From: Haliotis rubra
Taxonomy: Eukaryota
Direction: 5' to 3'
Assembly: GCF_003918875.1 (NCBI RefSeq)
Contig: NW_025766956.1
Span: forward strand, 310,001 to 374,000
Length of the DNA: 64,000 nt
Positions 35,401 through 41,400 of this stretch are shown here, piece after piece. How positions within the stretch are numbered: position 1 is the first letter of the stretch; each line of letters begins with the position of its first letter. Made by a program: the position numbers.

Positions 35401-38400
35401 CTCTCTACAGCAACCTTTGATCCACACAGCTACACATGCAGATGCAAACTTAACAAACTACTAGCCAAAAGCACTATCATTCAGTCAAATGTCATTCTGA
35501 CAAAGACAGCCACTATTGCACAGCCCCAAGCTAAATGCTGTCAATCTGACTCCTCAACACAACCATAGGACAGTCCAGTGGTCATCAGTGAACTTGTGAA
35601 GGAGTTTGTCCCCACAACTGGTCACATATCCAAGGACTGCAGTCTTATGGGTCAGAATATTGGTTCTGTGGTAGGAATCAGGGCTCCTCACACCCCTATC
35701 AGTCTTCGAGCTCGGAACACCACGGTGCTGCAGACCAATACCCAGCAGGCTATGCCAACCCCGCCTGGAAACAAATAACAGAATACCTGCACTCAAAGTT
35801 TCCTTAGAATAATTTCATTGTTGATTTCAAGCTTTGAACAATGGAAGAAGTTGGGTTTAACACTTATTTGAATAATATTCTGGTGTGCCAAAGGGAGGTG
35901 ACTCTGCACAGGGAATTGTGGCAGCATGGACAACTGCACCACTGGTGTCCCTCTGAACAATAGAGGGGTAGAAATGACATCTTCACTGAAAAGAATCATC
36001 TTGGCAAAATGGTCCTTAATCTTCCTTTAAAGGGGAAACAAAGCTTTACTGTCTAGTAAAAGAATTCATGAATGATGGATGTACAACAGACAACAACTCA
36101 AGACAAACACTATAATTTTTAGTATAACTAAGAGAATCAGCGAGAATCAAACCTGGAATTCCTGTAGGGAAGGCGACAATTCGACTGAAGGGGAAGAAAT
36201 ATGAGGATGGCAGCTCTAGTAAAGGCTCATTTCGGTACGTCAAGACCAGACTTAACATTGTCAGAGCCTGAAACATACATATAGCACTCCCTGAAACATT
36301 TATATGCACGAACAATACTGCCAATGGTCCGAACATGCTAAGAGACAAGGATAGTACTCACTAACACATATATATTATTTCGTACAATATTCAGACTGTG
36401 ACAGATAATTTCAGGCATATTTAAAGAGTCTTATTTAAAATGTGACAGAAACATGACACAGTATATCAAATCAGATAACTGATACGATAGAAAAAGAAAT
36501 CTACTTGATTATATGACAAGGTCTGTGGATATTGGCTCTTGGACATGTGTGAAACAGTGCATAAATATTCAACATGTATATATATCAGCAGCTGATATTA
36601 TGTCCATCAGTTAATATGGCATAATTGATGCATAAATATTCAACATGCATATATATATCAGCAGCTGACAAAAATGTACATTAGCCCATAATCAATTGCA
36701 TGAATTGTTTACTCACATGAACAACATGGATGGCCATCTTGATGCCCACTTTCAACATGGTCAAACGCTGGGATCTTGAGCTTCCTGAATTAGAAGATGG
36801 CAGGATAATGTTATCACTTATCAAGAGCCTAGTGTCCATCAGTTAATATGGTATAATGGATGCATTAATATTGTAAACAATATTGCTTTCAGATCAGCAT
36901 ATGTTTAACATGATAATCATGATAATGATATAACATGGATAAATAACATAACTTAGTTAAATTTTCATTTATCAAATATTACATAAGTTATATGTGTATG
37001 GTAAAAATATATGAAAGGTACAACCACACTTTACATGTCTTATTCATCTTCACATATTTCTGTAATATTGATCTACCTAGTTGCTTAAGCTGCCCCATGA
37101 TCTTGTCAATTTTGCGTTGTATCTTCATGTAACGTGCAAACTCGTCAGCCATATTCACAGACTCCTGGTCCGACTTGAGGTCCCTGACTTGTGACCTGAG
37201 ATCTAGTTCCTCATTGCTCAGTCTAAACACCTTTTTCCCAATCTACAACAAAACATAAACAGATTGTGACAGGAAAAAAGTATAAACATGTACAACATAA
37301 TCTAAGAACAAGCTGTAAAGATAATAATGCTGAAACATTATCTTCTTCATGATGTTACACACAGCAAGTGGTTGCATAATGGCTCCCCATGTCAACCACA
37401 AACAACTAAAACTGGGTTTCGTAAAAGTGTAATGTGCCAATACCTTTTAGTTTTCATTTTAACATACCCAAAACAAAAAATCTTTTACGATCTTTATCCA
37501 TTTATTTTGGGAATGTGATGTTACTAAGAACTTTGGGGATAAAGTTTTGAAATGGATAGACCAGTGTGGTCGTGTATGCAATATGAAGCTAAGTGCTAGA
37601 TGTATACTATGTGTAGTTCATGAAAACATAATAACAGACAAGGTTTTTTATTTCATTTTGCTTTTTCAAGAATTTTTGCATTTACAAATGCAAATTTCAA
37701 AACTTATTTTAGTAGATTTGTACAGGAAATGAACATGAGATACAATATAGAAAAGGACATAGCTTTTAGAAACAGTGATCAACATAAGTTCTAACAGGCT
37801 TGAATGTTGTATCATGTACTTTTGCATCATTGAGCAATAATCAAGATCATTAAATATATATTTAACATGTGATATCTGAGGCCAGCTGATTCCTATCGAA
37901 GTTGTGTGTAAATGTAGGTGTGTAAGTATGTGAATGAGTGTTTGTCCTAATTGAAAAACCTTCTTCCTCTGTACATCCTTTAAACACCCATGTAAACACA
38001 ATATTAAATGAACTTCATGCTGTGGAACTCACATTACTCTGGGTGTGAGCTAACCCATATGCAACAGGAAGGGTGAAATAAAATATGTACAACCAAAAAA
38101 GCATCATATTTTTCTATATTATATTTTGAAACACTGCAAACCAGTTTCGGCTTCACAGGGTTGATTCCAGGTCCATGTTAATAATGAAATCACTTGCTAT
38201 TTCTCTATCTCACAATGAAATATGTATCACACTACATGTGACTACAGTAAATATAATAATGATTAATGACACACACTACATACTTCATTGTGATAGGAAT
38301 TGTTTTAACTCGAGCGTGTGTGCAAACGATAATTTCTACTTCAGTCTTCCACTTTAGCCATGTCATCATGACTGACTTCTGAGTCCAAGATCCGCGGACA

Positions 38401-41400
38401 TCACCAACCCAGGTCCAATCATCAGCTACGACGTTGTGGACCTATTCACCAATGTACCACGGGATGAAGCCCTTCAAGCACTACGTCACAGCCTCTCAAC
38501 ACCAGCCTCTCTACCGACTCTATCATCAGCCTCACCTCCGCCTGCATCAACTCCACCTACTTCACCTGGGGCGATGCCATCTATGAGCAAATCCACGGAC
38601 TTCCCATGGGCTCCCCACTATCCCCCATCCTAACAGAAATTTACATGGCCGACCTCGAAGAGAAGGCCCTAGAAACTGCACCCTTCAAACCGCCCTGCTG
38701 GTACCAAGTAAAGTGGATGACACCTTCGCCGCCCTCCAACCTCAGCAAGATCCAAAGCAGCTCCTCGCCCATCTCAACAGCCAACATCCCCCCCGCATCA
38801 AATTCACCATTGAAACAGAGCAGAACAACCAACTACCTTTCCTTGATGTCCTTGTGTCCCGCGACCTCCTGCAACCAACTCCAGACCTCCGTGTACAGAA
38901 AACCAACTCATACGGATCAATACATCCACTACAACTCCAACCACCCACCTAAAGTCAAGACGGCGCCATCTCTACATTGACCAGAAGAGCCAAAAACATC
39001 TGCTCAACAAACCTACAGGAAGAAATTGAACACCTGAGGAAAGTCTTTGTGGAACGCAACCACTACCCACCTGAAATAGTCAACAGAACCATCGGCAACG
39101 CTTTCACCTCCTGCCAAAAGGTCTAAACCAGAATCAGCCCCCATCAAGATATCCATTCCCTACATTGGTAAACCATCACACCAAATCAGCCGACTCCTGA
39201 AACAACAGGCAGGAATAGACACTACCTTCTCAGCGCCCTCCAGCCTCAACAACCTCCTCCATGCCAACGGAGAAAACAACCCACCACAACAACAACAACC
39301 CGAAATGTGTTATTTACAAAATAGACTGTGATTGTGGACAATGCTACATAGGTGAAACATCCCACCCATCAACACCCGAAGTCAAAGAACATCGCGCACC
39401 TCGGTTGCTAATTCCGACACCAAATCAGCTATCTCTGACCACATCAAAGCCAACCCCAATCATCAAATAGAGTGGTCCGACATCACCATTCTCGCCAACA
39501 ACCAAACGGACTTCACTAAACGCAAGCTCACAGAAGCCATTCACATCAAACGCCACAAGCCTACTACATCAACCGCGTGACCAAGGATACTTCATTCCAT
39601 CTGCTTATGATCCACTCCTCCACCAAGCCCAGTCTATTGTATAAACATCGCATCCAGTGTATAAACATCTCATTGTAACTACATCTCTGGCTTCCACTCA
39701 CTATCCTTTATGTACTTACTGGCTTCATCAGCTTACTGCTTAGCCAATCATGGCAATTATGTTGTTTCCTTTGTCTATTATGTTGTTTCATTGTTATATA
39801 CAGTATATATATGCAGCTCCTACACTTCATGTATCACTCTTGCTTGACAACGGTACAAGAATCTGTATCGAAACGTCGCACTCACCAAAATAAAGAAGTT
39901 GTTATCCATAAAACTTGTTATATATTGTACGTCTCAACTTCTAAAATGCCACTCAAACAAGTTAAGAACAAGCTGTAAAGATAATAATGCTGAAACATTA
40001 TCTTCTTCATGATGTTACACACAGCAAGTGGTTGCATAATGGCTCCCCATGTCAACAACAAACAACTAAAACTGGGTTTCGTAAAAGTGTAATGTGCCAA
40101 TACCTTTTAGTTTTCATTTTAACATACCCGAAACAAAACATCTTTTACGATCTTTATCCATTTATTTTGGGAATGTGATGTTACTAAGAACTTTGGTGAT
40201 AAAGTTTTGAAATGGATAGACCAGTGTGGTCATGTATGCAATATGAAGCTAAGTGCTAGATGTATACTATGTGGAGTTCATGAAAACATAATAACAGACA
40301 AGGTTTTTTATTTCATTTTGCTTTTCGCAATTTTTTGCATTTACAAATGCAAATTTCAAAACTTATTTTAGTAGATTTGTAAAGGAAATGAACATGAGAT
40401 ACAATATAGAAAAGGACATAGCTTTTAGAAACAGTGATCAACATAAGTTCTAACAGGCTTGAATGTTGTATCATGTACTTTTTGCATCATTGAGCAATAA
40501 TCAAGATCATTAAATATATATTTAACATGTGATACGAGGCCAGCAGATTCCTATCGAGTTGTGTGTAAATGTAGGTGTGTAAGTATGTGAATGAGTGTTT
40601 GTCCTAATTGAAAAAACCTTCTTCCTCTGTACATCCTTTAAACACCCATGTAAACACAATATGAAATGAACTTCATGCTGTGGAACTCACATTACTCTGG
40701 GTGTGAGCTATCCCATATGCAATAGGGAAGGGTGAAATAAAATATGTACAACCAAAAAAAGCATCATATTTTTCTATATTATATTTTGAAACACTGCAAA
40801 CCAGTTTCGGCTTCACAGGGTTAATTCAAGGTCCATGTTAATAATGAAATCACTTGCTATTTCTCTATCTCACAATGAAATATGTATCACACTACATGTG
40901 ACTACAGTAAATATAATAATGATTAATGACACATCAGCTACATACTTCATTGTGATAGGAATTGTTTTAACTCGAGCGTGTGTGCAAACGATAATTACTA
41001 CTTCAGTCTTCCACTTTAGCCATGTCATCATGAAGTGAAAGAAGGCAAACATCTGTTGAGTTGATTGAAAACGTTTCAGCTCAGACTTAGCCGAGAGCCG
41101 CGATGCGGTCCTACACAGTCAAGGCTAGCTCAGACTCAGAGTCAGAGTTCATACCCGGGGTGTTTCATCGTGCCACAAAGAGGAGCAAGCAAAATGAGAT
41201 CTTAGTTGTTTGATACAAAATGTACCCATAGTAGAATAACTCGTCTCTGTAATACATTTTCACGAATAATATACAGTCTGGCTGAGTCTGTGGTTGTTTT
41301 TATCTTCTTCTAGTCTTCATGAACGAAAAGTGAACAAATGGATCGTGTGACTTGTTGAGACAGTAACTGTTGAGTAGGAAGTGTCTCCTCAAATAACACT

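What the first reader, a model, noticed from the sequence alone, without database searches (positions are those of the whole stretch)
37303..41033. Penelope insertion flanked by a ~1.07-kb direct duplication of host intron
Seen: host sequence 37303-38371 is repeated at 39963-41033, and the truncated element fills the gap exactly, like a target-site duplication far longer than the 8-17-bp ones elsewhere in this window. Copies differ by scattered substitutions and small indels. Inference: widely staggered nicks, insertion at a replication fork, or template switching during integration, giving a way for Penelope elements to duplicate host DNA. The duplication starts only ~60 bp from GET1 exon 2. 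Alternative: an assembly join of two haplotypes.
Basis: partly seen in the sequence, partly recalled or inferred. Interest (0 to 1): 0.65.

Follow-up and report, generated by a model that had tools for sequence, protein, structure and literature searches.

The report
Kilobase target duplication at Penelope insertion
A broken Penelope-like retrotransposon inside an abalone gene's first intron sits exactly between two copies of about 1.07 kb of that intron, most simply a giant target-site duplication made during insertion, a rare outcome already known for LINE elements.

Summary
Window 37303-38371 (A) and 39963-41033 (B) are direct copies, 1044 of 1075 aligned columns identical, with no third copy in the 64 kb. 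The 1,591 bp between them (38372-39962, + strand) is a 5'-truncated Penelope-like element (PLE). Its protein homology starts at 38371/2. Its 3' end (39961) matches the terminus of an independent small insert of the same family at 33585-33693, which carries an ordinary 11-bp duplication.

Everything lies in intron 1 of GET1 (minus strand) of a Haliotis genome. No exon is duplicated.

Best reading: one aberrant target-primed reverse transcription. The first nick was at the left edge of the interval, and the top strand was joined 1,069 bp downstream. Which DNA end was used cannot be told from sequence.

A haplotype-join artefact is disfavoured, because it would need two junctions that no simple allele pair supplies. 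It is not excluded without reads.

Kilobase "large TSDs" are published for L1 and for the Dualen LINE. My paper searches found none for PLEs.

This is a single case. Neither an empty site nor other copies of the family could be checked, because no eukaryotic genome collection was available. Interest is moderate-low: a new member of a known kind.

The parts
37303..38371 (.). Copy A of the duplicated intron interval 'X' (1,069 bp), upstream of the element's truncated 5' end
   Evidence: GC 0.30-0.34 with no strong skew, like the neighbouring intron
38372..39962 (+). 5'-truncated, decayed Penelope-like element: C-terminal part of the RT, GIY-YIG region (about 39297-39562), then about 320 bp of 3' untranslated tail. 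It is antisense to GET1. It has 11 frameshifts and 0 in-frame stops.
   Evidence: GC 0.45-0.53 and GC skew -0.32 to -0.45
39963..41033 (.). Copy B of the duplicated intron interval 'X' (1,071 bp), directly after the element's 3' terminus
39950..39962 (+). 3' terminus of the element (...CACTCAAACAAG, plus one T of unassigned origin). This is the inferred site of first-strand priming against the left edge of X.
   Evidence: Homology to the independent family insert ends here, and that insert's own 11-bp duplication starts at the equivalent base
38371..38372 (.). 5' junction: end of X joined to the element inside its RT. Base 38371 (A) fits both X and the element's codon, a 1-nt overlap. This is the inferred position of the distant top-strand end.
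41445..41525 (-). GET1 exon 1 (27 codons from ATG), with donor gtaagt at 41444-41439; 411 nt from the end of copy B
37075..37242 (-). GET1 exon 2 (the lower bound is approximate), with acceptor AG at 37244-37243; 60 nt from the start of copy A
33574..33704 (-). Comparison insert of the same family: a 3' tail (33645 down to 33585) plus an inverted internal piece (33646-33693), flanked by the 11-bp duplication ACAACATTTTG

Best explanation
One aberrant retrotransposition event of a Penelope-like element (PLE) in intron 1 of GET1 of a Haliotis genome produced a 1,069-bp target-site duplication.

Shown:
- The ancestral intron interval X is present twice, in direct orientation.
- The element's own 3' terminus is fused to the first base of X (copy B).
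- The element's 5'-truncated RT is fused to the last base of X (copy A).

Inferred:
- The bottom strand was nicked at the left edge of X (between the equivalents of 37302 and 37303). Its 3'-OH primed reverse transcription from the 3' end of the PLE RNA.
- cDNA synthesis stopped inside the RT region.
- The cDNA end was then joined to a top-strand 3' end 1,069 bp to the right, not the usual roughly 10 bp away.
- Second-strand synthesis and gap filling copied X on both sides.

I think the distant top-strand end was most likely not made by the element's endonuclease at its normal spacing. It was more likely a pre-existing or replication- or repair-associated end, on the same duplex or on a sister chromatid or homologue, as proposed for large L1 duplications. 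That step is inference.

The event took the intron from about 1.54 kb to 4.2 kb, duplicated no exon, and left the GET1 reading frame intact.
For: - Exact anatomy: the repeat boundaries coincide with the element's boundaries to within 1 nt on both sides.
- The 3' boundary is the family's true terminus. An independent 109-bp insert of the same family at 33585-33693 ends at the homologous base and is followed directly by its own 11-bp duplication. X is therefore not part of the element, and the family normally makes short duplications.
- X has the composition of the surrounding intron, whereas the element is C-rich with strong GC skew.
- X occurs only twice in 64 kb.
- X has no hammerhead or other Rfam match. 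The only row at E<=1 is a chance miRNA match at 22.8 bits against a gathering score of 96.
- There are no inverted repeats and no LTR-type ends.
- Ages are compatible. A and B differ by 8 indel events over 2 x 1069 bp of lineage. The element carries 11 frameshifts in 1,250 bp, or 9 with two other guide proteins. Conditional binomial p = 0.051 and 0.12.
- Precedent from passages read: L1 duplications >100 bp up to 'extremely large' in NER-deficient cells (PMC5223499). 1-10 kb tandem duplications at L1 insertions are called 'large TSDs' (bioRxiv 10.1101/2024.12.14.628481). A sister-chromatid model exists (PMC7058536). De novo Dualen-4b LINE insertions have flanking duplications of median 900 bp (PMC9977147).
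- A purified lizard PLE protein cleaves and extends both strands and nicks AT-rich DNA (PMC11167929). The inferred nick site here (ATAATC|TAAGAAC) is AT-rich.
Against: - There is only one locus. No empty site, no read support and no second example could be examined, because no eukaryotic genome or read collection was open to me.
- The element has somewhat more frame-breaking indels per bp (8.8 per kb) than A and B have per lineage (3.7 per kb). The Poisson tail against the A/B rate is 0.009. The element may therefore be older than the duplication, may have been copied from an already damaged source, or may carry more consensus errors.
- The indel-to-substitution ratio between A and B is high (8:21), and 4-6 of the 8 indels lie in mononucleotide runs. 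This hints at long-read consensus noise, so the local assembly may not be perfect.
- A roughly 2% difference between A and B is also the order expected between haplotypes of a heterozygous marine invertebrate (my own knowledge, not tested).
- Published PLE duplications are short: 8-10 bp or none in Adineta vaga (PMC3846280).
Confidence: 0.65

Rival explanations
1. Assembly artefact. The two copies are the two haplotypes of one interval, wrongly laid in series around a heterozygous element insertion or through a chimeric read, so no chromosome carries both.
For: - A and B differ by about 2% plus small indels, a plausible allelic distance (my own knowledge).
- The excess of homopolymer indels in A/B and the 11 frameshifts in the element suggest an imperfectly polished long-read consensus in this repeat-containing stretch.
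Against: - The layout needs two junctions: end-of-X to the element's 5' end, and the element's 3' end to start-of-X. An ordinary insertion allele (short duplication, or X deleted) paired with an empty allele supplies at most one of them. A random chimeric join would have to fall within 1 nt of the element's native 3' terminus.
- There is no N or gap at either junction.
Confidence: 0.12
2. The tandem duplication of X arose from a replication or repair error such as break-induced replication, microhomology-mediated template switching or end joining. PLE cDNA or DNA was merely captured as filler at the junction, without the element's endonuclease starting the event.
For: - Repair-mediated duplications with captured DNA at the junction are documented in vertebrate genomes (PMC2671141; search listing and abstract only).
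- The element copy is heavily damaged, as expected if an old genomic copy served as the template.
Against: - The filler ends at the family's native 3' terminus to within 1 nt and is 5'-truncated, the signature of priming at the RNA 3' end rather than a random genomic segment.
- The left edge of X is AT-rich, like reported PLE nick sites.
Confidence: 0.1
3. X is not native to this intron. A chimeric transcript (truncated PLE plus downstream host DNA X from another locus) was inserted as a partial tandem, so A and B are pseudo-LTR-like repeats of a composite mobile unit.
For: - PLEs typically insert as partial tandems that create pseudo-LTRs (PMC8557442).
- Some A. vaga Penelope copies carry 0.9-1.5 kb spacers of captured host DNA, and PLE ends can move host genes (PMC3846280).
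Against: - The upstream partial copy would have to be truncated exactly at the PLE/X boundary, a 1-in-thousands coincidence that the duplication model explains for free.
- No short duplication flanks the 3,731-bp unit...CATAATC on the left against AGTGAAAG... on the right.
- No hammerhead ribozyme, which is typical of pseudo-LTRs, was found in X.
- An independent family member ends before any X-like sequence.
- X occurs only twice in the window.
Confidence: 0.05
4. X was already tandemly duplicated, and a normal PLE insertion later happened to land exactly at the A|B junction.
For: Nothing specific. Tandem duplications of about 1 kb are common structural variants (my own knowledge).
Against: - It requires a hit on 1 particular position of about 2,140.
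- No short duplication is visible at the junction.
- The element carries at least as many indels per bp as A and B have accumulated per lineage. That is the opposite of what a younger insertion into an older duplication predicts.
Confidence: 0.03

Closest known systems
Large target-site duplications and 1-10 kb tandem duplications at human L1 insertions (cell culture, NER-deficient cells, cancers)
   Same: A TPRT-type element, 5'-truncated, sits with its 3' end at one edge of a direct duplication of hundreds of bp to kb. The proposed cause is a second-strand end far from the first nick, or bridging to a sister chromatid (PMC5223499; bioRxiv 10.1101/2024.12.14.628481; PMC7058536; passages read).
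   Different: The element class differs: a GIY-YIG endonuclease and telomerase-like RT with no poly(A), rather than an APE endonuclease. This case is a fixed or germline copy in an invertebrate genome rather than a somatic or cultured-cell event. No information on repair background is available.
Dualen-4b LINE insertions in Chlamydomonas mutation-accumulation lines
   Same: De novo insertions are flanked on both sides by duplicated target DNA of median 900 bp, which the authors interpret as very long target-site duplications (PMC9977147, passages read). The size class matches this case.
   Different: In Dualen it is a habit of the family (more than half of insertions) and is attributed to its two endonucleases. 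Here the only other insert of the family that could be examined has an 11-bp duplication, so the long one looks like an exception.
R9 rDNA-specific LINE of bdelloid rotifers (126-bp target-site duplication)
   Same: An unusually long duplication set by the distance between the two strand cleavages. It is cited as 'exceptionally long' (title seen in the reference list of PMC8557442; figure quoted in PMC9977147).
   Different: It is site-specific and constant in length, about 8 times shorter, and a property of the element's endonuclease.
Penelope-like element pseudo-LTRs and host-DNA capture (Adineta vaga Pen1/Pen3)
   Same: Direct repeats frame PLE coding sequence, and host DNA of about 1 kb is associated with PLE copies (PMC3846280; PMC8557442).
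   Different: Pseudo-LTRs are element sequence repeated by tandem insertion, and they usually hold a hammerhead ribozyme. Here the repeat is intron DNA that starts only after the element's terminus, with no ribozyme match.

Membership tests
Penelope-like element, canonical type (RT followed by C-terminal GIY-YIG) | PLE-type reverse transcriptase | tested here: met
   The 170-aa open frame at 38468-38977 gave 129 proteins at E<=0.001 among 1383 candidates. The best are Haliotis proteins (2.4e-53), and many hits have the precomputed RVT_1 plus PF26215/PF28514. Frame-aware alignments give 72% identity to P0002 and 88-90% to P0001, P0003 and P0056. Pfam RVT_1 on the fragment itself is only sub-threshold: 21.8 bits against a cut-off of 29.6. 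That these homologues are 'Penelope-like' rests on their RT + GIY-YIG architecture and on my reading, not on a name in the database.
Penelope-like element, canonical type (RT followed by C-terminal GIY-YIG) | GIY-YIG endonuclease domain downstream of the RT | tested here: met
   Piece 39297-39392 aligns to the stretch that Pfam calls GIY-YIG (PF01541, E 7e-6 to 2e-5) in homologues P0090, P0041 and P0108, with invariant Y, C, C, G, T, E and H columns. Pfam does not score the 32-aa fragment itself. The domain is split by a frameshift at about 39393.
Penelope-like element, canonical type (RT followed by C-terminal GIY-YIG) | Pseudo-LTRs or partial tandem arrangement, and a hammerhead ribozyme | tested here: not met
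   This copy is a lone 5'-truncated fragment. There is no tandem or inverted element sequence next to it, and no hammerhead match at E<=1 in 36000-42500 or at gathering score in the whole window. Truncated copies need not carry these features.
Kilobase 'large TSD' made by target-primed reverse transcription (as for L1 and Dualen) | The same host interval lies directly on both sides of the insert, in direct orientation, with no other rearrangement | tested here: met
Kilobase 'large TSD' made by target-primed reverse transcription (as for L1 and Dualen) | The insert's 3' junction is the element's native 3' terminus, and its 5' end is truncated | tested here: met
   The terminus is defined by one independent insert of the family that has its own 11-bp duplication. 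Two more distant tail-like stretches did not resolve the end. The 5' truncation lies inside the RT.
Kilobase 'large TSD' made by target-primed reverse transcription (as for L1 and Dualen) | An empty site (allele or orthologue) holds the interval once and no element | not testable with these tools
Kilobase 'large TSD' made by target-primed reverse transcription (as for L1 and Dualen) | Endonuclease target motif at the first-strand nick | tested here: inconclusive
   The inferred nick context ATAATC|TAAGAAC is AT-rich. This agrees with the AT-rich preference reported for one lizard PLE (PMC11167929). No motif is known for this family, and only one other target could be read...ACAACATTTTG.
LTR retrotransposon (A and B as LTRs) | TG...CA LTR ends, a 4-6-bp duplication flanking the whole unit, LTR-type internal genes | tested here: not met
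   X begins TAAGAA and ends CATGA. The flanks ...CATAATC and AGTGAAAG... do not repeat. The internal part is a PLE fragment, not gag-pol.

The most novel reading that the evidence does not exclude
Penelope-like elements of molluscs may complete integration at top-strand ends far from their first nick often enough to be a recurrent source of kilobase tandem duplications of host DNA, exons included. This would reflect a loose coupling of first- and second-strand cleavage in GIY-YIG retroelements.

A bolder version: the cDNA bridged two homologues rather than one duplex. Part of the 2% difference between A and B would then have been inherited at birth, and the event would be younger than it looks.
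Probability: 0.12. Interest if true: 0.65.

Novelty: new member of a known kind. Interest (0 to 1): 0.38.

Why it matters
How PLEs finish integration (second-strand cleavage and synthesis) is not worked out. The one biochemical study I read says these steps are 'yet to be validated' (PMC11167929).

A PLE copy with a 1-kb duplication, beside a family member with an 11-bp one, shows that the distance between the two strand breaks is not fixed by the enzyme. Host DNA ends may therefore be used, as argued for L1.

If such events recur, they are a direct route from retroelement activity to tandem duplication of host sequence, and then to deletion of the insert by recombination between the long repeats.

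Here the practical consequence is small. An intron grew from about 1.5 to 4.2 kb and no exon was copied.

Tried and rejected
- X as part of the element (pseudo-LTR): rejected on the independent family terminus, composition and absence of ribozyme hits.
- X as an LTR or another transposon: no TG/CA ends, no flanking short duplication and no inverted repeats. Pfam found nothing in the minus-strand open frames of X. In all, 91 of the 106 frames of 35 aa or more in 31000-46500 were scanned. I left out the 15 that lie inside the element. Only the two GET1 frames hit CHD5.
- Other RT-bearing copies of the family in the window, wanted to compare duplications: none. All 16 tblastn rows from 16 element pieces were self-hits. 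Sensitive DNA searches added only two distant tail-like stretches, at 18360-18436 and 56885-56911, whose ends could not be aligned.
- R-loop-assisted unwinding of X (my own idea): no support. Over 37250-37999 the + strand is G-rich (skew +0.07 to +0.19), so the GET1 transcript there would be C-rich.
- Dating the element against close relatives: the nearest proteins are only 88-90% identical and partly from other species, so no usable clock. Only indel densities were compared.
- Microhomology: 1 nt (A) at the 5' junction. AACAAG occurs both at the element's end (39956-39961) and 5 nt into X (39968-39973), which is too short to weigh.
- Not done: no structure or complex prediction, as none bears on the question. 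The third protein search went unused, because an open frame inside X would be a weak test.
- Supplementary files of the papers were closed. Supplemental Fig. S7 of PMC9977147 and the tables of PMC5223499 hold the duplication-length distributions and were not seen.
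Full report
**Observation.** The repeat is real and sits at the stated coordinates.
- The repeat finder on 36000-42500 returned nine collinear direct blocks with spacing of 2657-2662 bp, from 37303/39963 to 38371/41033, and no inverted repeats.
- In a global alignment with 40-bp flanks, identity begins abruptly at 37303/39963 and ends after 38371/41033.
- Inside the repeat, 1044 of 1075 columns are identical. There are 21 substitutions (9 transitions, 12 transversions) and 8 indel events covering 10 columns. 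Four to six of the eight indels are length changes in short mononucleotide runs.
- blastn of copy A against the whole window finds only A and B.
- The window has no N.

**The piece in the middle.** Positions 38372-39962 are C-rich on the + strand (GC 0.45-0.53, GC skew -0.32 to -0.45). A, B and the neighbouring intron are at GC 0.30-0.36 without such skew.
- The longest open frame (38468-38977) gave 129 proteins at E<=0.001 among 1383 candidates. The best are uncharacterised Haliotis proteins (E 2.4e-53), and many hits carry reverse-transcriptase domains and, in some, GIY-YIG.
- A frame-aware protein-to-DNA alignment that I wrote places the homology from 38371 to about 39640.
  - With guide P0002 it shows 11 frameshifts and no in-frame stop.
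  - Guides P0005 and P0012 start at about 38400 and show 9.
  - The closer guides P0056, P0003, P0085 and P0001 put the breaks at the same places and are 81-90% identical in frame.
- The stretch 39297-39392 aligns with the segment that Pfam calls GIY-YIG in three homologues.
- Pfam on the fragments themselves gives only a sub-threshold RVT_1 match.
- The piece is therefore a 5'-truncated, decayed Penelope-like element (PLE) with RT followed by GIY-YIG, on the + strand. The label 'Penelope-like' is my reading of that architecture; no database name says so.

**Where the element ends.** This is the key point.
- The only other DNA in the window clearly related to this element is at 33585-33695.
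- It is a roughly 109-bp insert. A minus-strand copy of the last ~60 bases of the element is joined head-to-head to a short inverted internal piece. The whole is flanked by the 11-bp direct repeat ACAACATTTTG at 33574-33584 and 33694-33704.
- Its homology to our element stops at ...CACTCAAAGAAG, and its own target duplication follows immediately.
- The equivalent ...CACTCAAACAAG ends at 39961, one base before copy B begins.
- So the element's native 3' terminus abuts the first base of X. X is not element sequence, and the family can make an ordinary short duplication.
- Two more distant tail-like stretches (18360-18436 and 56885-56911) share a 20-base motif but did not resolve the terminus.
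- No hammerhead ribozyme or other RNA family was found in 36000-42500 at E<=1, apart from one chance miRNA row. None was found in the whole window at gathering scores.

**Host context.** Pfam on 91 minus-strand open frames matched the CHD5/GET1 family in two, 36991-37242 and 36049-36357. Those 91 came from 106 frames of 35 aa or more in 31000-46500; the 15 lying inside the element were left out.
- Exon 2 alone, searched against longer proteins, returned GET1-like proteins of Haliotis rubra (100% identity) and H. cracherodii (95%).
- tblastn of the H. rubra protein placed five exons on the minus strand.
- Exon 1 is 41525-41445, with donor gtaagt. Exon 2 starts at 37242, behind an AG acceptor.
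- I searched exon by exon and did not build or search a joined spliced model.
- The window is thus abalone, not human.
- Intron 1 is 4,202 nt. A, the element and B make up 3,731 nt of it, with 60 nt left towards exon 2 and 411 nt towards exon 1.
- No exon is duplicated, and the element is antisense to the gene.

**What happened.** The layout is left flank, X, element 5'-truncated, element 3' end, X, right flank. This is what target-primed reverse transcription gives when the two strand breaks lie 1,069 bp apart.
- The bottom strand is nicked at the left edge of X and primes cDNA from the RNA's 3' end.
- A top-strand 3' end at the right edge of X is then joined to the cDNA and primes the second strand.
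- Filling in copies X twice.
- The junctions carry at most one unassigned base each.
- The anatomy is shown. The order of events and the nature of the distant top-strand end are inferred.
- That end could be a second cut by the element, a stray nick, a replication or repair end, or a break on a sister chromatid or homologue. Sequence cannot tell these apart.

**Age check.**
- A and B have 8 indel events over two lineages of 1,069 bp (3.7 per kb per lineage).
- The element has 11 frameshifts in 1,250 bp (8.8 per kb).
- A conditional binomial test gives p = 0.051, or 0.12 with the 9-frameshift count. A one-sided Poisson tail against the A/B rate is 0.009.
- The ages are compatible but not neatly equal.
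- The excess could come from a damaged source copy, reverse-transcriptase errors, gene conversion between A and B, or more consensus errors in a multi-copy, GC-rich stretch.
- This argues against the element being younger than the duplication.

**Rivals.**
- *Haplotype join.* It would need both end-of-X to element-5' and element-3' to start-of-X. An insertion allele paired with an empty allele offers at most one of these, and a chimeric join would have to hit the native terminus within 1 nt. I hold it at about 0.12, because the high indel load hints at imperfect consensus and I have no reads.
- *Capture of element cDNA or DNA as filler in a repair-made tandem duplication.* This is hard to separate from the main model. 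The native 3' terminus speaks for priming on RNA.
- *A composite 'element plus X' unit inserted as a partial tandem.* This fits PLE habits. It needs truncation of the upstream copy exactly at the element/X boundary, and the unit lacks a flanking short duplication.
- *Insertion into the junction of an older tandem duplication.* This needs a 1-in-about-2,000 hit and predicts a younger element than observed.

**Comparison with what is known** (passages read through 'find' unless stated otherwise).
- PLE insertions are described with short duplications: 8, 9 and 10 bp, or none, in Adineta vaga (PMC3846280).
- The 126-bp duplication of the R9 LINE is called exceptionally long (title).
- More than half of de novo Dualen-4b LINE insertions in Chlamydomonas lines carry flanking duplications >50 bp, with a median length of 900 bp (PMC9977147).
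- L1 inserts recovered from NER-deficient cells mostly have duplications >100 bp, some 'extremely large' (PMC5223499).
- 1-10 kb tandem duplications at L1 insertions are 'regarded as large TSDs' (bioRxiv 10.1101/2024.12.14.628481).
- A sister-chromatid bridging model is drawn for L1-linked tandem duplications (PMC7058536).
- A purified lizard PLE protein cuts and extends both strands at AT-rich DNA, with later steps unvalidated (PMC11167929).
- My four searches on PLEs and long duplications turned up no report of a kilobase duplication at a PLE. That is an absence in these searches only. Subscription papers and supplements were not visible.

**Verdict.** The thing is best filed as a PLE example of a known, rare outcome of target-primed reverse transcription: a new member of a known kind.

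It stands on one locus in one assembly. Interest is moderate-low (0.38). It would rise if a genome-wide survey showed the family does this repeatedly.

Noticed in passing
window 33574-33704: A roughly 109-bp insert of the same PLE family: a minus-strand 3' tail joined head-to-head to an inverted internal piece, flanked by an 11-bp target duplication (ACAACATTTTG). The inverted 5' part resembles the inverted truncated copies described for PLEs, or twin priming in L1.
   Followed up: partly
window 18360-18436 (+) and 56885-56911 (-): Short stretches sharing a conserved 20-base motif (AAAGAAGTTGTTATCCATAA) with the element's 3' tail. They are probably tails of more distant PLE subfamilies; their ends and duplications were not resolved.
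   Followed up: partly
window 37303-38371 vs 39963-41033, and 38372-39640: The share of small indels is unusually high: 8 indel events against 21 substitutions between A and B, and 11 frameshifts with no stop codon in the element. Many lie in mononucleotide runs. This could be slippage, or unpolished long-read consensus in repeated DNA.
   Followed up: partly
window 24776-25408 (+): An open frame with a strong Lebercilin-domain match (PF15619, E 1.2e-40), probably an exon of an LCA5-like ciliary gene next to GET1.
   Followed up: no
window 46936-47988 (-): A 350-aa open frame with ankyrin repeats and a C-terminal SOCS box (an ASB-type protein), apparently a single large exon.
   Followed up: no
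window 51617-52392 (-): Overlapping open frames with a Tc1/mariner-type transposase HTH (HTH_Tnp_Tc3_2, E 1.5e-9): a decayed DNA-transposon remnant.
   Followed up: no
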